Shown here: positions 1 to 10,740 of the stretch, piece by piece | Layout: each line of letters opens with the position of its first letter | Numbering within the stretch: position 1 is the stretch's first letter | NCBI GenBank assembly: GCA_041653755.1 | Contig: JBAZEU010000001.1 | Location: 1,398-65,397, forward strand | DNA from: Minisyncoccota bacterium | GTDB taxonomy: Bacteria > Patescibacteriota > Minisyncoccia > UBA6257 > UBA9933 | Direction: 5' to 3' | Length of the DNA: 64,000 bases | Notes under the pieces: generated by a model | What the model saw: the letters and a program-made list of their open reading frames with translations, nothing else | Told to the model about the DNA's origin: nothing | The model's database searches: none | Program-made: the position numbers and the translations under genes

Positions 1-493
1 ACCATTTCACAGAGTTATCGCGGTGGAAAAGGCCTATCAAGCTGAACTGCCGGACGGAACCATCTTCAAAGGAAAGGCGGACCTCATTTATGACGATGGG
101 GAAGGAGACGTTCTTCTGGACTGGAAAACAACCGGAGGTTATTTTCTGGACAGCCGGCCTGACCTTGATGACCAGTTAACCGCCTACAGCATGCTTTCCG
201 GTATTACCAAAGTGGCTTACGGAGTCCTTCTAAAGAAGAAAGAACCGGAAGTAAACTTTTTTTTCGCCGTCAGGAACGAATCGGACTATCTTGATTATCA
301 GGTAAAGGTAATTAAGACGGTGGCTGATATAGAAGCAGGATTTTTTTACCGGAAGCCGTCTCTCTACTGCGGTTTCTGTAATTTTTGCTTTCTGTGTAGG
401 GGCCAGATGGACAAGGCAAAGGAAGAACTTCGTCAATTGCCGGTGGAAGACAGATACAAAAAGTTGGAGTGCAAACAGGTGTGTTTGCTTTGA
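1..493 (+). CDS. PD-(D/E)xK nuclease, Cas4/RecB-C-terminal-like; 5'-truncated by the window edge.
   Basis: The reading frame is open from nt 2. Motif DLIYDD...DWKTT fits a D..E.K nuclease core. A C-terminal cysteine cluster (C-x-x-C-x-x-C-x-x-C) resembles the Cas4/AddB Fe-S cysteines. Confidence 0.45.
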   Translation, partial: PFHRVIAVEKAYQAELPDGTIFKGKADLIYDDGEGDVLLDWKTTGGYFLDSRPDLDDQLTAYSMLSGITKVAYGVLLKKKEPEVNFFFAVRNESDYLDYQVKVIKTVADIEAGFFYRKPSLYCGFCNFCFLCRGQMDKAKEELRQLPVEDRYKKLECKQVCLL

Positions 494-718: not shown

Positions 719-756
719 AAGCTACCTGATTTGAAGTTTCAAAAGTATCTGAAAAA

Positions 757-765
757 TGCTATAAT
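757..765 (+). promoter_or_regulatory. Candidate extended -10 promoter (TGcTATAAT) for the methyltransferase operon.
   Basis: The sequence tgctataat lies about 100 nt upstream of the ATG at 863. No clean -35 was found. Confidence 0.3.
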
Positions 766-862: not shown

Positions 863-2056
863 ATGTATGATAATGTCGTAGCCCAAGAAATTTCTCGGAA
901 ATATAGGCAAACGCCGTTGGTAAATTTTGCCGGTGTCAGCCAATATACAAAGCTCCAAGATTTGAACTTAAACTGGAGAGAAAGAGATTTACCGGAACGA
1001 GCAAGAACAAAACATGTTCACAGATTACACCCGTACATGGGGAAGTTTATTCCACAGCTCGTGGAAATCTTTTTGCGAAAATATCAACCCCGCTTGGTTT
1101 ACGACCCGTTTTGCGGTTCTGGTACAACATTGGTAGAAGCGAACGCCCTCGGCATCGATTCAATTGGCACCGATATTTCCGCTTTTAACATATTGCTTTC
1201 AAAAGTAAAAACCGACGAATACAATTTTCCTTTACTGGAAAAGGAATTATACGAAATCTTAAGAAGGTTCTGCGAATACAAAAACAAATTTTCAAAAAAT
1301 AAAGGAGTTGATAAATTATTTCAAACAAAAAACGAATACATAAAAACTTGGTTTGCGCCTAACACCCAAAAAGAATTACTTTGTTATTTGAAACTCATCA
1401 AAGATTATACCTATCAAGATTTGTTAAGAATAATCTTGTCACGGTCCGCTCGGTCCGCCCGTTTGGTTACTCACTTTGACTTAGATTTTCCCAAAAAACC
1501 GCAAATCACCCCGTATCAATGCTATAAACACGGGCGAATATGCAAGCCGACCGAAGAGGCATACAAATTCCTAAATCGTTATACAATAGATACTCTTCGA
1601 CGAATAAAGGAATTTTCGCGAATAAGAACAAAGGCGAAAGTCGTTCTTAGTAACGATGATTCTCGATCCCTCAATCTTCCCAAAGGAATCGACATGGTTT
1701 TCACCTCTCCGCCTTATCTTGGTTTAATTGATTACCATGAACAGCATAAATATGCTTACGAACTTCTTGGATTGAAAAACAACGAGACGCGTGAAATTGG
1801 AGCGGCGAAAAACGGCCATTCAGATAAAGCAAAACAAGATTATATTAAAGGTATAAACGATGTCTTATTGCATACGCGTGATTATATGGCTAAAGACGGA
1901 TTGGCAATCATTGTCGTAAACGATAAATTTGGTTTGTACAAGCCTGAAGCTACAGGGTTTAAGGCAATCGGCCGAGTCGAAAGACATGTCAATCGTCGAA
2001 CCGGCAGAAGAAAGGGCGCATTTTACGAGAGCATCCTAATTTGGAAAAAAATATGA
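863..2056 (+). CDS. DNA amino-methyltransferase (N6-adenine or N4-cytosine), alpha-class motif order.
   Basis: AdoMet motif I is DPFCGSGTT near aa 80. Catalytic motif IV is FTSPPY near aa 280. The roughly 200-aa spacing suggests a target-recognition domain between them. Confidence 0.8.
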   Translation: MYDNVVAQEISRKYRQTPLVNFAGVSQYTKLQDLNLNWRERDLPERARTKHVHRLHPYMGKFIPQLVEIFLRKYQPRLVYDPFCGSGTTLVEANALGIDSIGTDISAFNILLSKVKTDEYNFPLLEKELYEILRRFCEYKNKFSKNKGVDKLFQTKNEYIKTWFAPNTQKELLCYLKLIKDYTYQDLLRIILSRSARSARLVTHFDLDFPKKPQITPYQCYKHGRICKPTEEAYKFLNRYTIDTLRRIKEFSRIRTKAKVVLSNDDSRSLNLPKGIDMVFTSPPYLGLIDYHEQHKYAYELLGLKNNETREIGAAKNGHSDKAKQDYIKGINDVLLHTRDYMAKDGLAIIVVNDKFGLYKPEATGFKAIGRVERHVNRRTGRRKGAFYESILIWKKI

Positions 2057-2889
2057 CAAAAGAACAAGAAATGAAGGAAGCCATCCAATCTGTCGTTAAG
2101 CTGATGATGAATAGGGTTATGCAAAAAGTTTTAGTGGAGGATCCGTTCATAAAAGAAGAACATAAAGCTAAAAAACCGCTGTATGCCGCTTTAGTTCCAG
2201 ATGAAATATTTAAAGGGGCGCATTTCGAAAGACGCTTTGTCACTCCTTTCGGTGGTGTCTGGGAGAAACTCGCTATTGTGGCTGCAAACAAAGGTCTTGG
2301 ATATGGAGTAAAGGAGCATAGTATTACAGGAACGGTAAATTCTGAACGGTTAAGAAGAATACAAGAAATTTTAAATAATTTGGAACATTCAGAAAAGGGA
2401 AAGAAAAAGATTAGACCGAATTGGGATAGCGAACTCAAATATATCATGGAAGGTAAAAGCGAGAAAGTTATGCCAACTACCGTTATTTGCGATGTGTACG
2501 CCGAAGATAGAAAAAATGACAAAAAATATGCCTTTGAGTTAAAAGCTCCGCTACCAAATAGTGATCAAACGAAAGTAAGTAAAGAAAAAATTCTCAAGCT
2601 ATACAGCATGGAACCAAGACAAATTGATGAGGCTTATTATGCCTTACCATACAACCCTTTCGGAAAAAGAGAAAACTATTCCTGGAGTTTTCCTGCAAGA
2701 TGGTTTGATATGAAAAATGACAAAGCGGTGTTAATTGGAAATGAATTCTGGGAAAAAATCGGAGGGCTTGGGACATATAAAGCTTTTATTGATGCAATAA
2801 ATGAAATAGGCAAGGAATATAAGGACCGAATTTACAGAGAATTTTTGGGTATTGAACCACCGTCTGATATAGATGCGGATAAGTTGTAA
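2041..2889 (+). CDS. Putative type II restriction endonuclease with a PD-(D/E)xK core, cognate to the upstream methyltransferase.
   Basis: It overlaps the methyltransferase stop by 16 nt, implying translational coupling. Motif VICDVYAED...YAFELKAP fits D...ExK. The rest is unique sequence typical of REases. Confidence 0.5.
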   Translation: MEKNMTKEQEMKEAIQSVVKLMMNRVMQKVLVEDPFIKEEHKAKKPLYAALVPDEIFKGAHFERRFVTPFGGVWEKLAIVAANKGLGYGVKEHSITGTVNSERLRRIQEILNNLEHSEKGKKKIRPNWDSELKYIMEGKSEKVMPTTVICDVYAEDRKNDKKYAFELKAPLPNSDQTKVSKEKILKLYSMEPRQIDEAYYALPYNPFGKRENYSWSFPARWFDMKNDKAVLIGNEFWEKIGGLGTYKAFIDAINEIGKEYKDRIYREFLGIEPPSDIDADKL

Positions 2890-2899
2890 TTTAATATGT

Positions 2900-3682
2900 A
2901 TGGAACCTTTTAAACTACCGGCTCTTGAATCTCTTGCGAAAATCGTCGGTGATCGTTATTCAGGAACAGGAATATCGGAATTTTTTCGTAAAGCAGGTTT
3001 TCCTGACGTTGTTCATGACGGTGGTACAAAATGGCGATTTGTGTACGCTTCCCTTGAAAATCTACAGAATCGGGCTTATGGCCCTATTAACGTGGTAAAA
3101 GTAATTCAACAGTTGTGCGATCCTCAGGAGTATTTTTCAACACCAGATCAACATACGGAAATCTGTGACCAAGTCAATCAGATTCTCGGGTTTTATGGAT
3201 TGCTGGTTGGCGAAGATGGTCGAGTGAGAAAACTTGATGAAAAAGTTACATCGCTTTCAAAGCCTATACCGGAGAATGCAAAAATATTTGATAGCCGTCA
3301 GTTTCACTCCACAATTATTTGCCACGCCCGCAAATTATTCGTCGAAGGTAATTATTTTCACGCCATTTTTGAGTGTTGTAAAGTATATGATAAAGAAGTG
3401 CAAAACAAGTCCCAGATGTCTGGCTATGGATCAAGGCTAATGGAGGAAGCTCTTTCTCTTTCGGGGTCACTTAAACTAAATACTCAACGAACCAGAACAG
3501 AAGTTAATGAGCAAGAAGGTGTTATGCATCTTTCGGTTGGTTTGATGAGGGCTATTAGAAATCCTCAAGCTCATGAACCTGCTCTTGATTGGCCAATCAA
3601 TCGAGAAGAGGCGTTGGATTTACTTTCTTTTTTGAATTTCCTATTTCGAAAATTTGATAAGGTAACATACTTTAAACAATAA
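2900..3682 (+). CDS. HEPN-domain protein (TIGR02391/Ymh-like or Abi-like), a predicted RNase. The start may be the upstream ATG at 2873.
   Basis: A C-terminal Rx4H motif (AIRNPQAHEP) sits at aa 229-234 of the 269-aa ORF. The gene overlaps the REase stop. Confidence 0.55.
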   Translation: MEPFKLPALESLAKIVGDRYSGTGISEFFRKAGFPDVVHDGGTKWRFVYASLENLQNRAYGPINVVKVIQQLCDPQEYFSTPDQHTEICDQVNQILGFYGLLVGEDGRVRKLDEKVTSLSKPIPENAKIFDSRQFHSTIICHARKLFVEGNYFHAIFECCKVYDKEVQNKSQMSGYGSRLMEEALSLSGSLKLNTQRTRTEVNEQEGVMHLSVGLMRAIRNPQAHEPALDWPINREEALDLLSFLNFLFRKFDKVTYFKQ

Positions 3683-3686
3683 ATTT

Positions 3687-6560
3687 ATGAGTACTCCATA
3701 TCCAAAAGGTTCGGAATGGCGAAAATGGGATTTACATGTCCACACACCTTCGTCTGCTTTAGCTCATACCTTGGGTAGCGATTGGGATGGATATGTCAAC
3801 CAACTTATTGATGCTATAAAAAAACACCAGATAGCCGCGATTGCTACCGCTGATTATTTTACAATTGAGGGATACAAAAAGCTGCTTGAATATTACAGTA
3901 AAGACACATGTACGCTCTCCGCAAATAGCAAAAGCGTTCAATGTTATTTGATCCCTGGCATAGAATTACGACTCAACATCTTCAACAGCGAAGAAGAATC
4001 TATAAACTTACATATATTCTTTGATCCAGAATGTTGTTCGAGCGAATTCATTACCCAAAATTTCCTTGAAGCATTAAACATCGTTTATAGGGGATCGGAA
4101 GTATTGCTGAAACAACAGAACCTTTTGGCAATTGGAAAGAGCATTGCCGATAATACACCGGCAGATTTTGGCCAGAGTTTTGGCGCATGCAGCGAAGCCA
4201 CAAAAGATGAATATATTAGAAAAGCACTTGGAGCAATAACCTTAAACTATACCAATATCGATGACGCACTTAAAGGTATTGATAAAATATTTGAAAAACA
4301 AAATCTCCCACCAAAAGCTTATTTAATCGCAGTCGTTGGTAAGGGACACGGTGGTATCAGATCGCTTAAATGGTTTGAAGACAATAAAAGTTTCTCTCGC
4401 GCTGGACTTATCAGAGAACATTTGACCTACCAAACAGATGCCATTTTTTCGAATGATCAGAACGATAGGAATTTCTACCTTGGCAGACGGGAAGATGCTC
4501 CCGCAACGGAGATTCAAAATAGGTTTGATAATCTCAAGCCGTGCATTTGGGGTTCTGATAGTCACTCTCTTGATAAATTACTTCATCCATCTAATGGCAA
4601 TACATTGGATTATACGTGGATCAAGGCGGAGATTTCCTTTGAGGGATTTAAGCAAATTACTTACGAACCAGAGCTGAGGGTAAGGGTTCAGCAAGATAAT
4701 CCAGTTGAAGAAGAAGCTTATGCAAAGATCGAAAAACTGGAATTAGATTTCCCGGATGATCTGAAAATCAAAGACAAAGAATCCGAAGAGGCGATATCCT
4801 TTTGTATTCAAGGCAAACAGGAGGTAAACTTTTCATCAAATTTGACATGTATTATTGGTGGGAGAGGATCGGGTAAAAGTACCTTGGTTCATATCCTTTA
4901 TAACCTTGTTCCAAAAAGAGACGCTGACCGACTTTCTAAAGTCAGTTCCCCTTTGTTCAATTTACAACTTGGGTCGAAAGATGAGCTAGGAAAAATTCGT
5001 TCCCAAACTAAATCTAACATACCATCGAGCACAGAATTTTTCTTACAAAATGAGGTTGAAAAATTCGCAAAAGATGTTAGTGAAATGTCTATCCTAATCA
5101 AGACTCGCCTTTACGGTTTATCTGCCATTGATGATGGACAAAAAAATCTTCAAGAAATTGAAAGTGAGTGGCAAGATACTGCCATAGGAATGGAGGAATT
5201 GATTTCCGCCTATGATGAAATCACAAGGATTGATCAACAAATAGTTTTGGTCGTTAAGCAAAAAGATACATTAAAAAAACAGACCGATGTTATCAGCTCA
5301 AAAGATTATAAAAAACTCCAGAAAGAAATTGAAGAAATAGCTAATGCCATCAGTGCTTTTGATACCTACGAAAAAGAATACAGACGATTGTCGCTTGAGA
5401 TATTGACGCTTATAAAAAGCATCGCCAGGCTCGATTGGACTAAATATGAAGGCCAGTCTATTTTGGTTTCCCTATCCGCCGAACTTGATAAAAAGAAAGC
5501 CGAGATTCAAACATTTTTTGAAGAAACAAACAAAAAATATGTTACCGCAGATTACGCAACTAAATTAGGCGATAAAAAAACGCAACTAAAAAACTTCTTG
5601 AAAGAAAAGGGCCTTTCTCCGGAAAATATTGGAGAAATAGCCACCGCTACGCAGCAAATTGCTGAGTTGGATGAACAAATAAAGATTCTGAGGCAGGAAA
5701 GAATACCACACCAAGAAATCTATGACAGTAAAGAAGGGACACTTCAAACATATAGAGAGGCGTACGCTTCTTACAAAGGAGTGTTCGAATCAGTAGCGAA
5801 TAAGCTTCAATCAAATTTAAGTAATCTTAAATTTGACGGCGAAGAGACAAACATTTCTTTTCAATTTAAGACTAATGATCAATTACTAAAAGACGGAGTT
5901 GCTGATTTTATTAAAAGCCATAACACTTCAAGAATTAATTTAAGAGCCGATAACATTCAAAATGTTTTATTTGGGAATAATGATGTACCCTTTTCAGCTA
6001 TAGTCTCTGATCAATTAAAGATAGTGGCGGCCGTAAATAGTTCAGAGGTGGCCGATGCCCACACTCAAATTATTAGGGATCTAATAGGCGACCCAACTTT
6101 TGTTGAAAAACTTTACTTGCGGATGCAACGATACCACTTTGACATCGAAAACGTCCAAGTGCAAACAAAACTTGGCGAGAAATTTTTACAAAACACGTCG
6201 TTTGGCGAGAGATGTGGAATCGTAATTGCTATTGTTCTTGTTGCCGGAACAAATCCTATAGTAATTGACCAACCAGAGGATAATCTGGACGGGAAATATA
6301 TTTCGAAAGTTCTTGTTCCTTTAATCCGTACTCAAAAACATAAACGCCAAATTGTACTTGTTACAAGAGATGCAAATATTGTAATTGGTGGCGATTCAGA
6401 ACTGATATTAATTCTTGATAAAGAAAACCATGGTTCAGTATTACTGCCTGCAACTATCGAGAATAAAGTTATTCGATCCAAATATATTTGGATTCTAGAC
6501 GGTGGCGAAAGAGCATTCAAAGCTCGTGAAGCAAAATACTGTATTCACAAAGCAGCATAA
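3687..6560 (+). CDS. PHP phosphoesterase fused to an SMC/Rad50/SbcC-like ABC ATPase with a long coiled coil. From memory, possibly the TrlF-family architecture.
   Basis: PHP motifs are WDLHVHTPSS, GIELR, NLHIFF and WGSDSH in the N-terminal ~330 aa. Walker A is IIGGRGSGKST at aa 391-399. A coiled-coil-like charged region spans about aa 430-800. Signature-like SFGERCG lies at aa 838-844, Walker B/D-loop VIDQPEDNLD at about aa 860, and H-loop-like VLVTRD near aa 890. Confidence 0.75.
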   Translation: MSTPYPKGSEWRKWDLHVHTPSSALAHTLGSDWDGYVNQLIDAIKKHQIAAIATADYFTIEGYKKLLEYYSKDTCTLSANSKSVQCYLIPGIELRLNIFNSEEESINLHIFFDPECCSSEFITQNFLEALNIVYRGSEVLLKQQNLLAIGKSIADNTPADFGQSFGACSEATKDEYIRKALGAITLNYTNIDDALKGIDKIFEKQNLPPKAYLIAVVGKGHGGIRSLKWFEDNKSFSRAGLIREHLTYQTDAIFSNDQNDRNFYLGRREDAPATEIQNRFDNLKPCIWGSDSHSLDKLLHPSNGNTLDYTWIKAEISFEGFKQITYEPELRVRVQQDNPVEEEAYAKIEKLELDFPDDLKIKDKESEEAISFCIQGKQEVNFSSNLTCIIGGRGSGKSTLVHILYNLVPKRDADRLSKVSSPLFNLQLGSKDELGKIRSQTKSNIPSSTEFFLQNEVEKFAKDVSEMSILIKTRLYGLSAIDDGQKNLQEIESEWQDTAIGMEELISAYDEITRIDQQIVLVVKQKDTLKKQTDVISSKDYKKLQKEIEEIANAISAFDTYEKEYRRLSLEILTLIKSIARLDWTKYEGQSILVSLSAELDKKKAEIQTFFEETNKKYVTADYATKLGDKKTQLKNFLKEKGLSPENIGEIATATQQIAELDEQIKILRQERIPHQEIYDSKEGTLQTYREAYASYKGVFESVANKLQSNLSNLKFDGEETNISFQFKTNDQLLKDGVADFIKSHNTSRINLRADNIQNVLFGNNDVPFSAIVSDQLKIVAAVNSSEVADAHTQIIRDLIGDPTFVEKLYLRMQRYHFDIENVQVQTKLGEKFLQNTSFGERCGIVIAIVLVAGTNPIVIDQPEDNLDGKYISKVLVPLIRTQKHKRQIVLVTRDANIVIGGDSELILILDKENHGSVLLPATIENKVIRSKYIWILDGGERAFKAREAKYCIHKAA

Positions 6561-6708: not shown

Positions 6709-8241
6709 ATGAATTTTTCTAAATCACGCAAAGGTTTCACCCTCATAGAACTTCTAATCGTGATAGGTATCGTAGCAGTTCTAGCCGTCGTCGTCTTAAC
6801 AGTTCTCAATCCAGTGGAATTCCTCAAAAAAAGCAGGGACTCTAGGCGTATGGTAGACCTCCAGACCTTGGATAAAGCCCTAAGGTTAGCTGATTTTGAC
6901 AATATCTCCATGGGAACAGCCAATGTGGTATATGTTTCCATCCCTGATGACACAGCAGCCACCTCAACCTGTCCTACCCTATCCTTACCAGCTTTACCAG
7001 GAGGCTGGACTTATCAATGCTCTAATACTACTAACTACCGAAAAGCTGACGGTACTGGCTGGGTACCTGTTAACTTCACCTCTCTTACCACAGTTCCCAA
7101 TCCTTTAACCTTACTACCAGTTGATCCCACCAACAGTACTTCCACCAATCTCTACTATTCATATGTCTCTGGTAGTTGGGAACTTACTGCCTTATTTGAA
7201 ACCACTGGTTACCAAACCAAATACGCAGCCAGCGACAATGGCACTTCCACTGTCCTATTTGAAGTGGGCAACCATCTTAAGATTACCCCTAATGCGGTAG
7301 CTTCAAGGACTAATACCGGAGGAGGGGGAGGCGGAAGTTCCTACACCTTAACCTTTAATACCAGTCCTACTTATTCAGGTTCGGTTACCTTTGACGGTTC
7401 TTCCTACGCCAATGGCGATACTGCTTCCAAATCTTCAGGTTCTTACAATATTTCTGGCACCCCTGGTTCAGGCCGATCCTTTTCCTACTGGTCTCCTACA
7501 GGGATGACTGTCACTGACACCAGTACCTTAAGCACTTCTGCCACTGTCTCAGGCGCTGGCAGTTTATCCATGATTCAGGTTCCTGACTCATACACCAAAT
7601 TACTCCTACATATGGATGGGACGAATGGGTCAACTAGTTTCCCTGATAGTTCTACCGCGGCCCATACGGTTACAGCTAATGGAACCGCCCAAGTAACTAC
7701 TGCCCAACAAAAATTTGGGACAGGATCGGTTCAATGTAATGGAAGTGGTAATTATCTTACTTCTGCTGATAGTGATGATTGGTATTTTGGTACCAATGAT
7801 TTTACAGTTGATTTTTGGGCAAGAAATACAGGCGGAACTAATGTGTATTTAGTTAATCAATGGCACATTAACAGCGGTGGTGTAAGTATGAGTTGGGCTA
7901 TTCTTTGGAATAGTAGCAACGGAGTGCTTATTTTACTTAGAGATCATCCTGGAGCTTGGAATGATTTTAATCAATACAATACTAGTGGGATAACTATGTC
8001 TAGTAATACTTGGTACCATATAGCATTAGTAAGATACAACAACTATGTAGATATTTATGTTAACGGTACGTCTTACTTACACCAGGCTTATTCTCTTTCT
8101 CTCCAAAACAGTGACATGAATTTGGGTATTTGTGATTATATGGGAGCCCAAGGATTTACTGGGCAAATAGATGAAGTTCGTATTTCTAAAGGTATAGCTC
8201 GTTGGACTTCAAACTTTACTCCGCCAACAGCGCCGTATTAA
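6709..8241 (+). CDS. Type IV pilin-like protein (class III signal peptide) with a large S/T/G-rich body and a C-terminal LamG-like lectin domain.
   Basis: The N-terminus SRKG|FTLIELLIVIGIVAVLA carries a prepilin cleavage/methylation motif with E at +5. The C-terminal approx 200 aa (LLLHMDG...FTVDFWAR...RISKGIARWTSNFTPPTAPY) is a concanavalin/LamG_3-like jellyroll and is paralogous to the C-terminus of the 55820 ORF. Confidence 0.7.
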   Translation: MNFSKSRKGFTLIELLIVIGIVAVLAVVVLTVLNPVEFLKKSRDSRRMVDLQTLDKALRLADFDNISMGTANVVYVSIPDDTAATSTCPTLSLPALPGGWTYQCSNTTNYRKADGTGWVPVNFTSLTTVPNPLTLLPVDPTNSTSTNLYYSYVSGSWELTALFETTGYQTKYAASDNGTSTVLFEVGNHLKITPNAVASRTNTGGGGGGSSYTLTFNTSPTYSGSVTFDGSSYANGDTASKSSGSYNISGTPGSGRSFSYWSPTGMTVTDTSTLSTSATVSGAGSLSMIQVPDSYTKLLLHMDGTNGSTSFPDSSTAAHTVTANGTAQVTTAQQKFGTGSVQCNGSGNYLTSADSDDWYFGTNDFTVDFWARNTGGTNVYLVNQWHINSGGVSMSWAILWNSSNGVLILLRDHPGAWNDFNQYNTSGITMSSNTWYHIALVRYNNYVDIYVNGTSYLHQAYSLSLQNSDMNLGICDYMGAQGFTGQIDEVRISKGIARWTSNFTPPTAPY

Positions 8242-9266: not shown

Positions 9267-9569
9267 ATGATTTCAGGGATTACAGACAACAAGGCAATTC
9301 ATGAATTGCGAGATGAGCTTAGAGATTTAAATAAAAATCTAAAAAAGGCGAACAAAGAGAATAAAAGGTTAACCATACTCGTAATTATTATTGCTCTAGT
9401 TCAGTTTACGACTTCCTTATTCCAATTTCTGGTAGGCATAATATCTCTATCTCCTAGCGAAATTTGGTTGGGAATAATCCTAGAGGTACTTTTATTCTTG
9501 TTTATTTATAAAATAATCAAGGAATCGAGTTTATTTTTGAAGGAAGATAAGCAAAAAAGGAAAAATTAA
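9267..9569 (+). CDS. Hypothetical small membrane protein with an N-terminal charged coiled segment and two TM helices.
   Basis: ORF only. The hydrophobic stretches are LTILVIIIALVQF and IWLGIILEVLLFLFIY. Confidence 0.35.
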   Translation: MISGITDNKAIHELRDELRDLNKNLKKANKENKRLTILVIIIALVQFTTSLFQFLVGIISLSPSEIWLGIILEVLLFLFIYKIIKESSLFLKEDKQKRKN

Positions 9570-9673
9570 AGAAATTTCTTTGATTTTGAAAATCAAAAAT
9601 TATTGTCGGTGAGTTTGGCTGGTGATGATATCATAAATGATACATTGATATTTCCGCACTAAATTGTTATTCT

Positions 9674-10309
9674 GTGAATGATTACGTTTTGCCGTTAGGC
9701 GATAACTTTTTCCCTATGTCTTATATTGACGAAATTATTAAAAATATACCAAATGGCCTTTACTACCTAGCGGTAGGTTGGGTTGTTTGGCAAGTAGCAA
9801 GGTTTTATTTTATAAGATTCCGAGATTTAGAGAAAAAATCGGATGATATATCTGGTATTAGTAAAAAAATCGACGATAAGCTTGAACCTACTCTTATAAA
9901 AATAAACTCAACCCTTGATAGAATAAGTCGATACATCATTACGAAAGATTCTCTCGATCCAGCTTTTTTCAGCACTAATAGTCCGGTTGAGTTGAATGCT
10001 TTAGCGAATGAACTTTTGGAGAAAAGTGGTGGTACGGCGTTTGTAGATAACACTCTTGATTTTCTAGTTTCGAAGATTGAAGAACGAAATCCAAAAAGTA
10101 TATTGGATATTCAACAATTAGCAGTATCTGTGATTTTCGACCTTGTGGATACCGAAGCATTTAGCAAAATCAAAGACTTTGTTTACCAAAATCCAAAGTA
10201 TAAAAGTCAAGACGTGGACATACCCGTGATCATCAATATTATCGCTTTACACCTAAGGAACAAATATTTCGAGAAACACCCCGAACTCGAAAGTTCTAAC
10301 CAACAATAA
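9674..10309 (+). CDS. Hypothetical protein with an N-terminal TM helix.
   Basis: ORF with coding-like composition. No recognisable motif. Confidence 0.4.
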   Translation: MNDYVLPLGDNFFPMSYIDEIIKNIPNGLYYLAVGWVVWQVARFYFIRFRDLEKKSDDISGISKKIDDKLEPTLIKINSTLDRISRYIITKDSLDPAFFSTNSPVELNALANELLEKSGGTAFVDNTLDFLVSKIEERNPKSILDIQQLAVSVIFDLVDTEAFSKIKDFVYQNPKYKSQDVDIPVIINIIALHLRNKYFEKHPELESSNQQ

Positions 10310-10314
10310 ATTTT

Positions 10315-10740
10315 ATGTCTTACTTCGTTCGACCAACAACAAATCAGGGCATTCACGATAAAGCCGTTAAAGATATTGCACGGAAGCGGTTTGACGGCGT
10401 GAAATATGATGTTTATACAAACCCCGGCGGTGAGAAAAATGCTTATGTTGGATCGAAAACAAATCCGATCCATCCAGATATTCTTGTTTTAGAAAAGGGC
10501 TATGGACTTAGAACCGCGATTGCTATAGGAGAAATCGAAACATCAGATTCTATTACTGATAACGAAGCAGATCAGTGGAAAGAGTATGCGGCAACAAAAA
10601 TACCTTTTTATTTGTATATCCCCGCCGGGAATGCTAGCAAGGCAACGGATATTCTAAAGAAAAAAGGGATAAAAATTTCTGGCTTAAGAACATACAAATA
10701 TGATTCGTTAGGAGAATTAATTGTTTCTAATATCTTTTAA
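10315..10740 (+). CDS. Hypothetical protein.
   Basis: ORF starting 5 nt after the upstream stop, consistent with an operon. No confident motif. Confidence 0.4.
   Translation: MSYFVRPTTNQGIHDKAVKDIARKRFDGVKYDVYTNPGGEKNAYVGSKTNPIHPDILVLEKGYGLRTAIAIGEIETSDSITDNEADQWKEYAATKIPFYLYIPAGNASKATDILKKKGIKISGLRTYKYDSLGELIVSNIF

What the first reader, a model, noticed from the sequence alone, without database searches (positions are those of the whole stretch)
863..6560. Four-gene translationally coupled defence operon: methyltransferase, restriction endonuclease, HEPN protein and PHP::SMC-like ATPase
Four same-strand ORFs are packed with 16-nt and 17-nt overlaps and one 4-nt gap, so they very probably form one transcript. 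The first two make an ordinary type II R-M pair: an alpha-class amino-methyltransferase (DPFCGSGTT ... SPPY) and a PD-(D/E)xK endonuclease. The last two are not R-M components: a HEPN Rx4H protein, predicted to be an RNase, and a 957-aa fusion of a PHP phosphoesterase with a Rad50/SbcC-like ABC ATPase. This resembles nuclease-plus-ATPase effectors such as OLD/Gabija/PARIS, but with a PHP domain where those carry TOPRIM or Mre11 nucleases. The HEPN + PHP-ATPase pairing welded to an R-M looks like a layered immunity module: restriction first, then an abortive or DNA-degrading backup. I do not recognise it as a named system.
Basis: partly seen in the sequence, partly recalled or inferred. Interest (0 to 1): 0.85.

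Follow-up and report, generated by a model that had tools for sequence, protein, structure and literature searches.

The report
Restriction, HEPN and PHP-ATPase defence cassette
A candidate-phylum (Paceibacterota) bacterium carries one tightly packed four-gene operon that stacks three already-known kinds of anti-phage module (a TdeIII-type restriction-modification pair, a Ymh-family HEPN RNase and a TrlF/Ppl-type PHP-nuclease ATPase); this is a new combination of familiar, independently mobile parts, not a new kind of system.

Summary
The four ORFs exist as described. With the publicly annotated starts the junctions are a 4-nt ATGA overlap, a 10-nt gap and a 4-nt gap.

All four genes fall into known families:
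- **g1:** alpha-class amino-methyltransferase.
- **g2:** TdeIII-family type II endonuclease.
- **g4:** member of the NCBIfam TrlF family (PHP nuclease plus SMC/Rad50-like ABC ATPase), a distant relative of the validated single-gene defence protein Ppl.

The proposed HEPN + PHP-ATPase pairing recurs but is not obligate.
- None of 80 TrlF loci in reference genomes has the HEPN gene.
- None of 12 close TrlF relatives (58-85% identity, excluding a 41% one) has it. They sit after other R-M systems, or alone.
- HEPN relatives of 70% identity or more are always followed by a large NTPase, but it varies: TrlF, AAA_13, LmuB-like, UvrD or helicases.
- HEPNs 90-91% identical to each other have unrelated partners.
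- More distant HEPN relatives sit inside type I R-M operons.

R-M linkage of Ymh HEPN proteins, and the layered-defence reading, were published in 2013. Verdict: a real, co-transcribed defence stack built from known modules. Interest is modest.

The parts
738..765 (+). Best promoter-like site (TTCAAA, 16-nt spacer, TG-extended TATAAT), about 100 nt upstream of g1. Candidate operon promoter.
   Evidence: This is a consensus match only: 20 sites were found against 17.3 expected, so it is weak evidence.
863..2056 (+). g1: alpha-class amino (N4-C/N6-A) DNA methyltransferase. Motif I DPFCGSGTT at nt 1103-1129, motif IV SPPY at nt 1706-1717. Deposited as MFA5386060.1 'DNA methyltransferase'.
   Evidence: Pfam N6_N4_Mtase 8.5e-13. 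PADLOC MTase_II PDLC03249 3.6e-93. Motif positions. Exact protein on record.
2053..2889 (+). g2: TdeIII-family type II restriction endonuclease (278 aa from ATG 2053; the longest ORF starts at TTG 2041). A candidate PD...ExK signature (D147 ... E162-L-K164) was seen by eye.
   Evidence: Pfam RE_TdeIII 1.8e-74, full length. PADLOC REase_II 2.7e-43. The 278-aa protein is on record as 'TdeIII family type II restriction endonuclease'; the 282-aa form is not. ATGA junction.
2900..3682 (+). g3: Ymh/TIGR02391-family protein (260 aa; the longest ORF starts at 2873). It has a conserved helical N-terminal domain (HDGGTKWRF, nt 3014-3040) and a C-terminal HEPN domain with the RNPQAH motif (nt 3557-3574).
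3687..6560 (+). g4: TrlF-family protein (957 aa). PHP phosphoesterase domain at about aa 11-330 (HxH nt 3735-3743; GSDSH nt 4551-4565). ABC ATPase N-lobe with Walker A GGRGSGKST (nt 4857-4883). Antiparallel coiled coil at about aa 488-711. C-lobe with signature-like TSFGERCG (nt 6195-6218) and Walker B/D-loop IVIDQPEDNLD (nt 6258-6290).
   Evidence: NCBIfam NF045780 404.5 bits against a cut-off of 350, covering residues 7-951. PADLOC Ppl 5.1e-25, C-terminal part only. AF2 model. Foldseek hits to JetC/MukB/SMC/Rad50 and to the PHP domains of RNase AM (7ug9) and Pol III alpha. Residue conservation.

Best explanation
The region is a single, probably co-transcribed defence cassette in a Candidatus Paceibacterota genome. 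It stacks three modules that are each known and each move independently.

(1) A TdeIII-family type II R-M pair. The methyltransferase marks host DNA. The SPPY motif suggests N4-cytosine, and the family's GGNCC site is recalled from memory. The endonuclease cuts unmarked incoming DNA.

[quoted passage not shown] I infer it is a latent RNase that stops translation when infection proceeds. Its trigger is unknown. Because this family is found in or next to R-M operons of every type, the trigger is most likely tied to the state of the R-M system, on the PrrC paradigm.

(3) A TrlF-family PHP-nuclease/SMC-like ABC ATPase. By analogy with its relative Ppl, I infer it is an autonomous, NTP-gated exonuclease that attacks free DNA ends. 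Restriction cleavage produces such ends, which would explain why TrlF genes so often sit at the 3' end of R-M operons.

Shown here: gene order, family membership, folds, motif conservation, and neighbourhood statistics. Inferred: all enzymatic activities, the triggers, co-transcription, and any cross-talk between modules.
For: Catalytic residues are conserved.

TrlF is independent of the HEPN gene:
- 0 of 80 TrlF loci in GTDB genomes carry a Ymh HEPN ORF.
- L002 (41% identity) and 12 contexts of relatives 58-85% identical to g4 all lack it (L001 and L002).
- Those relatives follow a PglX-like MTase (85% identity), a CcrM-like MTase (83%), a type IIG enzyme (76%) or a type III R-M plus UvrD (68%), or sit alone among housekeeping genes (72%).
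- Tight neighbours of TrlF in the 80 loci are R-M genes (DpnII, HpaII, XhoI, ResIII, Methylase_S, Type ISP, Vsr), TrlG-like SLFN_AlbA_2/HATPase_c_4 (7 of 38), TIR and ApeA. This is defence-island context.

The HEPN gene is independent of TrlF:
- Of 80 metagenomic HEPN loci, only 5 (3 distinct) have a TrlF downstream.
- The others have AAA_13/PDC-S06, LmuB-like, GajB-like UvrD, REase_III-like or PDC-S28 helicase genes, or type I R-M subunits.
- HEPNs that are 90-91% identical have unrelated partners (L081 TrlF vs L171 PDC-S28; L086 TrlF vs L087 LmuB-like).
- Solo full-length Ymh genes sit in the lysogeny modules of streptococcal prophages.

Other support: GGNCC is depleted about two-fold in the window (60 observed vs 112 +/- 11 expected; CCNGG ratio 0.9, GGCC 1.1). 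Literature: Ymh is 'in operon with R-M' and analogous to PrrC/RloC (PMC3710099); PD-lambda-3 is abortive (PMC13190303); Ppl is an NTP-inhibited, 3'-end-activated PHP exonuclease (PMC12904381).
Against: The HEPN-TrlF junction is very tight (4 nt). The same TAA/TGA-ATTT-ATGA junction is seen in the window, L081 and L086, although their TrlF proteins are only about 28% identical to g4.

TrlF lies directly downstream of the HEPN gene in about 4 of about 15 distinct loci of the close HEPN clade. That is far more than expected for a rare gene family, although clustering in defence islands inflates the figure.

Every close-clade HEPN locus with enough sequence has a large nucleic-acid NTPase immediately downstream, which could mean the HEPN protein needs such a partner.

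PD-lambda-3 is described as a two-gene system, so Ymh-type proteins may not be autonomous.

No experiment supports any activity here. The GGNCC specificity is recalled from memory, not tested.
Confidence: 0.6

Rival explanations
1. The HEPN protein and TrlF form a dedicated two-component effector, a split analogue of PrrC/RloC. The SMC-like ATPase/PHP protein senses phage DNA or nucleotide depletion and switches on the HEPN RNase. More generally, the Ymh HEPN protein is a portable effector that plugs into whichever NTPase is encoded downstream. The R-M pair is simply attached.
For: The HEPN-TrlF adjacency recurs with a 4-nt spacer in four lineages whose TrlFs are only about 28% identical to g4. 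Three of them sit next to three different R-M types: TdeIII (window), type III (L081) and AlwI (L084/L086). All close-clade HEPN loci have a large NTPase directly downstream. Ymh HEPN domains are known fused to paraMORC ATPases, and PrrC/RloC fuse ABC ATPases to HEPN (PMC3710099). One AAA_13 partner gives a weak PrrC hit (2.5e-7).
Against: The nearest relatives of g4 (58-85% identity, 12 contexts) and all 80 GTDB TrlF loci lack the HEPN gene. The partners (Ppl/TrlF, PDC-S06, PDC-S28) are catalogued as single-gene systems or candidates. HEPNs 90-91% identical pair with non-homologous NTPases, so the HEPN shows no sign of co-adaptation to its partner. In the more distant HEPN clade the neighbours are type I R-M subunits, not accessory NTPases.
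Confidence: 0.25
2. g4, possibly with g3, is not immunity at all. Instead it is a DNA-repair or chromosome-maintenance factor of the SbcCD/Mre11-Rad50 type, with PHP replacing Mre11, that happens to lie beside an R-M system. Alternatively it is a growth-control locus, like the Photorhabdus temperature-restriction locus.
For: The fold resembles Rad50/SMC/MukB. Some close homologues (P0006, P0007, P0014) sit alone among housekeeping genes. The founding TrlF was described in a temperature-restriction operon, not in a phage assay (bioRxiv 10.1101/2020.06.02.129163).
Against: The distribution is patchy and spans phyla, including archaea. Neighbours are overwhelmingly R-M, TIR, CBASS, ApeA, integrases and resolvases. 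The related protein Ppl is a validated anti-phage protein (PMC12904381, PMC11482910). No conserved housekeeping synteny was seen.
Confidence: 0.07

Closest known systems
TrlF (temperature restriction locus F, Photorhabdus laumondii; NCBIfam NF045780 'TrlF family AAA-like ATPase')
   Same: g4 matches the family model end to end above the curated cut-off (404.5 vs 350 bits). It has the same PHP ('histidinol phosphatase'-annotated) N-terminus plus ATPase.
   Different: The founding operon is trlR-trlF-trlG, where TrlG is SLFN_AlbA_2 + HATPase_c_4. No TrlG or TrlR gene flanks g4. TrlG-like genes follow only 7 of 38 tight downstream neighbours in other TrlF loci. Here the upstream partner is a HEPN gene.
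Ppl (single-gene PHP + ATPase anti-phage protein; Gao et al. 2020, cited from memory; mechanism summarised in PMC12904381)
   Same: Same architecture: a PHP nuclease fused to an ABC-like NTPase. There is detectable homology in the C-terminal ATPase lobe (NCBIfam 3e-32, PADLOC 5.1e-25). It is probably also an NTP-gated exonuclease acting on DNA ends (inference).
   Different: The score is far below the Ppl equivalog cut-off (111.5 vs 1000 bits) and only the C-terminal 115 residues or so align. g4 is therefore a different family within the same superfamily. Ppl is studied as a stand-alone gene; g4 is the last gene of a four-gene operon.
PD-lambda-3 (two-gene abortive-infection system of E. coli; Vassallo et al. 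2022, PMC9519451; abortive phenotype in PMC13190303)
   Same: g3 is a full-length homologue of subunit B (PADLOC 6.1e-36, residues 10-265 against model positions 4-264 of 270).
   Different: Subunit A (reported to carry PD(D/E)XK PF11645, PMC10952713) was not detected in g1, g2 or g4 by the PADLOC models. The neighbours here are an R-M pair and TrlF.
Ymh (PF09509) HEPN genes embedded in R-M operons; PrrC-EcoprrI and RloC (Anantharaman et al. 2013, PMC3710099)
   Same: A HEPN RNase gene lies next to an R-M system and next to an ABC/SMC-type ATPase. The proposed logic is the same: restriction first, suicidal RNase as backup.
   Different: In PrrC/RloC the ATPase and the HEPN nuclease are one polypeptide and the R-M is type I. 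Here they are separate genes, the ATPase carries its own PHP nuclease, and the R-M is type II.
OLD / Gabija GajA / PARIS AriA
   Same: An ABC-type ATPase is combined with a nuclease. There are weak AriA hits by sequence and fold (PDB profile search 1.1e-3; Foldseek 2-8e-3).
   Different: There is no TOPRIM domain. g4 has a long SMC-like coiled coil. The similarity is at the level of the generic ABC core only.

Membership tests
TrlF family (NCBIfam NF045780) | Whole-protein score above the curated equivalog cut-off, with end-to-end coverage | tested here: met
   404.5 bits against a cut-off of 350. Protein residues 7-951 align to model positions 1-943 of 944.
TrlF family (NCBIfam NF045780) | N-terminal PHP phosphoesterase fold with metal-binding motifs (HxH, E, H, DxH) | tested here: met
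   Pfam missed it. The AF2 N-terminal domain (pLDDT 85-92) matches the RNase AM PHP domain 7ug9 (probability 1.0, TMt 0.58) and the Pol III alpha PHP domain. Conservation in 28 sequences: D15, H17 and H19 26-27/28; E93 and D291 28/28; H109 24/28; H293 19/28. All are present in g4.
TRL operon (trlR-trlF-trlG) of Photorhabdus | Adjacent TrlG (SLFN_AlbA_2 + HATPase_c_4) and the small regulator TrlR | tested here: not met
   The neighbours of g4 are the HEPN gene upstream and a pilin-like gene downstream. No AlbA_2/HATPase_c_4 gene was found within the flanks examined (to about 12.7 kb).
Ppl (NCBIfam NF042955 / PADLOC PDLC02208) | Score above the equivalog cut-off over the full length | tested here: not met
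   111.5 bits against a cut-off of 1000. Only residues 832-947 align.
Ppl | NTP-inhibited 3'-5' ssDNA exonuclease activity and anti-phage protection | not testable with these tools
   Known for E. coli Ppl from the literature only (PMC12904381).
HEPN superfamily, Ymh/TIGR02391 family | Family model above cut-off and a conserved Rx4-6H motif | tested here: met
   PF09509 109.3 bits against a cut-off of 25. TIGR02391 75.9 bits against 39.45. R220-N-x3-H225-E226 is invariant in 31 homologues.
HEPN superfamily, Ymh/TIGR02391 family | HEPN four-helix fold | tested here: met
HEPN superfamily, Ymh/TIGR02391 family | RNase activity | not testable with these tools
   Predicted from the motif only.
PD-lambda-3 (two-gene system) | Subunit B homologue | tested here: met
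   PADLOC PDLC03987 6.1e-36, near full length.
PD-lambda-3 (two-gene system) | Subunit A (PD(D/E)XK, PF11645) encoded next to subunit B | tested here: not met
   No PD-Lambda-3_A hit for g1, g2 or g4 at E <= 0.1. g2 hits only REase_II models.
Type II R-M, TdeIII family | REase family match with an adjacent cognate-type methyltransferase | tested here: met
   RE_TdeIII 1.8e-74 and MTase_II 3.6e-93. ATGA start/stop overlap.
Type II R-M, TdeIII family | Host genome avoids the recognition site | tested here: inconclusive
   GGNCC ratio 0.53, z -4.6, while CCNGG is 0.9 and GGCC 1.1. The site assignment is from memory. Other palindromes (CGCG 0.63, GANTC 0.68) are also depleted.
PrrC / RloC anticodon nucleases | ABC ATPase and HEPN nuclease in a single polypeptide, linked to a type I R-M | tested here: not met
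   The genes are separate, the R-M is type II, and there is no PrrC hit for g3 or g4.
OLD / Gabija / PARIS | TOPRIM nuclease domain coupled to the ABC ATPase | tested here: not met
   No TOPRIM hit. AriA and PtuA hits are marginal (E 0.004-0.04; 1.1e-3).

The most novel reading that the evidence does not exclude
The Ymh HEPN protein of this clade is a universal, portable effector or adaptor placed at a fixed junction between an R-M system and a swappable nucleic-acid NTPase (TrlF, PDC-S06/AAA_13, LmuB-like, GajB-like UvrD, PDC-S28). It is switched on by a signal common to all of them, for example nucleotide depletion, DNA ends, or loss of R-M activity. 'R-M - HEPN - NTPase' would then be a genuine three-layer integrated system rather than three neighbours. 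In small-genome Patescibacteria, TrlF would serve as the post-restriction exonuclease.
Probability: 0.15. Interest if true: 0.65.

Novelty: new member of a known kind. Interest (0 to 1): 0.33.

Why it matters
If the stacked-module reading is right, this is one more example of defence-island modularity, of interest mainly because it lies in a CPR/Patescibacteria genome, where defence repertoires are poorly described.

Two by-products may be useful. First, TrlF-family genes sit preferentially at the 3' end of R-M operons of several types. Given the Ppl mechanism, this suggests a testable 'restriction makes ends, PHP exonuclease finishes' synergy. Second, one Ymh HEPN clade marks a recombination hot spot where at least five different NTPase defence genes are exchanged behind nearly identical HEPN genes. 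That hot spot could serve as bait for finding new defence genes. Neither point overturns current understanding.

Tried and rejected
- **Literature search for 'TrlF' by word start.** It was swamped by TRLFS spectroscopy papers. A whole-word search found the Photorhabdus paper.
- **All-against-all BLASTP clustering of TrlF neighbours.** Too insensitive: the largest cluster had 8 members. I replaced it with aggregated Pfam scans.
- **My own TrlF HMM built from close homologues.** It scored the TrlFs of L081/L082/L086 at only 150-234 bits, so at first they looked like non-members. The NCBIfam model showed they are bona fide TrlF proteins (356-576 bits).
- **PDB sequence-profile searches.** Only marginal ABC hits for g4 and nothing for g3.
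- **A three-way link between TrlF and PDDEXK_1 nucleases.** Considered and rejected. The copies in the window, L167 and L001 are barely related to each other.
- **PD-lambda-3 membership.** Rejected because subunit A is absent.
- **Ppl membership.** Rejected on the curated cut-off.
- **The Vassallo paper text.** It holds no description of the PD-lambda-3 genes; that information is in figures.
- **Not used.** The 1.84-billion-protein representative search and the viral-contig scans. The recognition site of TdeIII could not be confirmed in the accessible literature.


Full report
**Observation.** The 16-nt and 17-nt overlaps belong to the longest possible ORFs.
- The protein on record for g2 is 278 aa and starts at ATG 2053. 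The 282-aa and 272-aa versions are not on record.
- The protein on record for g3 is 260 aa and starts at ATG 2900 (P0121).
- The sequence then gives an ATGA stop/start overlap for g1/g2, a 10-nt gap for g2/g3 and a 4-nt gap for g3/g4.
- The best promoter-like site lies at 738-765, upstream of g1. No convincing + strand terminator separates the genes.

A single transcript is therefore likely, but it is inferred. The window comes from a 194,951-bp contig of a Candidatus Paceibacterota MAG. The downstream genes are housekeeping: a pilin-like protein, dCMP deaminase and OMP decarboxylase.

**What each gene is.**
- **g1** is an amino-methyltransferase (Pfam N6_N4_Mtase; PADLOC MTase_II 3.6e-93). 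Motif I (aa 81-89) lies about 190 residues before SPPY (aa 282-285). This is the alpha-class order by established classification.
- **g2** is a full-length TdeIII-family type II endonuclease (Pfam 1.8e-74). TdeIII is an experimentally documented restriction enzyme of Treponema denticola (PMC12878829).
- **Recognition site.** GGNCC, the site I recall for this family, occurs 60 times in the window against 112 +/- 11 expected. CCNGG and GGCC are not depleted. This is consistent with long-term GGNCC restriction but does not prove it.
- **g4** exceeds the curated cut-off of NCBIfam NF045780, 'TrlF family AAA-like ATPase', end to end (404.5 vs 350 bits). It has weaker, C-terminal-only similarity to Ppl.
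- **PHP domain of g4.** Pfam did not report a PHP domain. The well-modelled N-terminal domain matches the PHP domains of RNase AM and Pol III alpha. The rest matches JetC, MukB, SMC heads and Rad50.
- **Conserved residues of g4.** The PHP metal ligands (D15, H17, H19, E93, H109, D291, H293) and the ABC motifs (Walker A K397, Q454, SFGE 838-841, D861/E864, D868) are conserved.

**What is already known about these families.**
- TrlF was named in the Photorhabdus temperature-restriction locus trlR-trlF-trlG (bioRxiv 10.1101/2020.06.02.129163).
- Ppl is a single-gene PHP + ATPase defence protein. It is now described as an ssDNA 3'-5' exonuclease that is inhibited by bound NTPs and activated by nucleotide depletion and 3'-OH ends (PMC12904381; also PMC11482910).
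- PD-lambda-3 is a two-gene abortive-infection system (PMC9519451, PMC13190303).
- Anantharaman et al. 2013 (PMC3710099) classified Ymh/PF09509 as HEPN. They recorded it 'in operon with R-M' and proposed that Ymh-ATPase fusions in R-M neighbourhoods are functional analogues of PrrC and RloC.

The components are therefore named, and the layered R-M + HEPN idea is published.

**Is HEPN + TrlF a module? The TrlF side.**
- A scan of one genome per species returned at least 562 TrlF relatives across bacteria and archaea, and 80 loci were kept.
- An HMM of the g3 family found no HEPN ORF in any of the 80 loci.
- Tight same-strand neighbours are R-M genes of many types, TrlG-like genes (7 of 38 downstream), AAA_21, TIR, ApeA and PDDEXK.

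Thirteen contexts of closer relatives were examined, 41-85% identical to g4 (12 of them at 58-85%). None has the HEPN gene (HMM check).

| Relative | Identity to g4 | Context |
|---|---|---|
| P0002 | 85% | overlaps a PglX-like methyltransferase |
| P0004 | 83% | follows a CcrM-like methyltransferase |
| P0003 | 82% | follows an unidentified 556-aa gene |
| P0005 | 76% | follows a type IIG enzyme; followed by ThsB-TIR and a TrlG-like gene |
| P0006, P0007 | 72% | among housekeeping genes |
| P0009 | 69% | follows an HNH gene and a small ORF |
| P0014 | 68% | no defence gene among its called neighbours |
| P0016 | 68% | follows a type III R-M plus UvrD |
| P0022 | 65% | follows a PDDEXK_1 gene, beside a CBASS-like pair |
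| P0024 | 63% | near an N6_N4 methyltransferase |
| L001 | 58% | follows a type III-like Res |
| L002 | 41% | no HEPN |

**Is HEPN + TrlF a module? The HEPN side.** A metagenome scan gave 80 loci.
- In the clade 70% or more identical to g3 (L081-L098, plus L171), every locus with enough downstream sequence has a large NTPase just after the HEPN gene, usually after a 4-nt gap. The NTPase varies:
  - bona fide TrlF in L081, L082-84 and L086 (356-576 bits);
  - AAA_13/PDC-S06 in L085, L088 and L094/95;
  - an LmuB/PtuA-like ATPase in L087 and L089/90;
  - a GajB-like UvrD in L091 and L092;
  - REase_III-like helicases in L093, L096 and L098;
  - a PDC-S28 helicase in L171.
- The TrlFs in L081, L082 and L086 are only about 28% identical to g4, while their HEPNs are 75-83% identical to g3.
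- HEPNs 90-91% identical to each other have non-homologous partners: L081 vs L171, and L086 vs L087.
- Three of the four HEPN-TrlF lineages lie beside an R-M system, and each R-M is of a different type: TdeIII (window), type III Mod+Res (L081) and a divergently oriented AlwI (L084, L086). The context of L082 is unknown.
- In the clade 58% or less identical, the HEPN gene sits inside type I operons: Methylase_S in 8 upstream and 8 downstream neighbours, plus HsdR domains.
- Distant full-length Ymh genes stand alone in the lysogeny modules of streptococcal prophages.

**Interpretation.** The constant companion of this HEPN family is an R-M system of any type. TrlF's commonest companion is also an R-M system, and TrlF can stand alone. 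The HEPN-TrlF adjacency is over-represented and has a conserved junction. But near-identical HEPNs carry interchangeable partners, and the closest TrlF relatives lack the HEPN gene. Both facts argue for cassette shuffling at a hot spot rather than a co-adapted pair.

I therefore favour a co-transcribed stack of three autonomous modules, at 0.6:
- restriction by TdeIII-type R-M;
- an abortive HEPN RNase whose trigger is probably tied to R-M status (the PrrC paradigm, inferred);
- a Ppl-like, NTP-gated PHP exonuclease that may exploit the DNA ends made by restriction (inferred).

The rival, a functional HEPN-NTPase unit, keeps 0.25. A non-defence role keeps about 0.07.

**Novelty and verdict.** Every gene belongs to a described family. 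The R-M/HEPN layering concept and the PHP-ATPase defence architecture are both published. The exact four-gene combination is new but is a recombination of known parts, so I rate it 'new member of a known kind' with interest about 0.33.

The most novel reading not excluded is that the Ymh HEPN protein is a universal effector wired both to R-M and to a swappable NTPase. I give this about 0.15. It would merit about 0.65 if true.

Noticed in passing
window 2-493 (+): This is the 3' part of a PDDEXK_1 (Cas4/RecB-like) nuclease gene with a C-terminal Cys cluster (CGFCNFCFLC), cut off by the window start, about 370 nt upstream of the operon. PDDEXK_1 genes also lie near TrlF in L167/L168 and L001, and after HEPN-UvrD in L091. 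The copies are barely related to the window's copy, although L001 and L091 are closely related to each other.
   Followed up: partly
window, whole 64 kb: Palindrome biases other than GGNCC: CCGG is enriched (ratio 1.66, z +7.8), CGNCG 1.48 and GCNGC 1.35. CGCG (0.63) and GANTC (0.68) are depleted. This may reflect other R-M systems in the genome or codon effects.
   Followed up: no
L081 6786-6800; L086 6789-6800; window 3680-3690: The HEPN-stop/TrlF-start junction (TAA or TGA, ATTT, ATGA) and the first TrlF residues (PYPKGS / KYPRGS) are conserved, although these TrlF proteins are only about 28% identical to the window's overall. This suggests recombination inside or just after the start of the TrlF gene.
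   Followed up: partly
L086 4201-5892 (-): A single 563-aa ORF combines a LexA DNA-binding domain, a Peptidase_S24 domain and a D12-class adenine methyltransferase, next to an AlwI-family endonuclease. This is an unusual SOS-repressor/methylase fusion. It could instead be an artefact of my crude ORF call.
   Followed up: no
L081 177-1550 (+): A TrlG-like gene (SLFN_AlbA_2 + HATPase_c_4) lies at the head of an operon that continues with type III Mod, Res, Ymh HEPN and TrlF. TrlG and the HEPN gene can therefore coexist with TrlF in one cassette.
   Followed up: no
L172 5001-7877; L161 5001-7880: TrlF homologues 72% identical to g4 sit alone between metabolic genes, with no defence gene among their neighbours with Pfam hits. 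This shows the gene can be maintained as a solitary unit.
   Followed up: partly
L174 3477-4283 (Streptococcus phage Javan514) and 9 other prophages: Full-length Ymh proteins (about 23% identity to g3) are encoded as solo, oppositely oriented genes between the antirepressor and excisionase genes of streptococcal and lactococcal prophages. They are likely lysogen-expressed exclusion genes.
   Followed up: partly
window 6709-8241 (+): A 510-aa type IV pilin-like protein (N-terminal methylation motif, poly-Gly stretch, C-terminal Laminin_G_3/ConA-like lectin domain) lies directly after the operon, with higher G+C (0.44 vs 0.35-0.39).
   Followed up: no
window 9267-10740 (+): Three consecutive ORFs (100, 211 and 141 aa) have no Pfam match. 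They lie in the lowest-G+C stretch (0.33-0.34), between dCMP deaminase and OMP decarboxylase.
   Followed up: no
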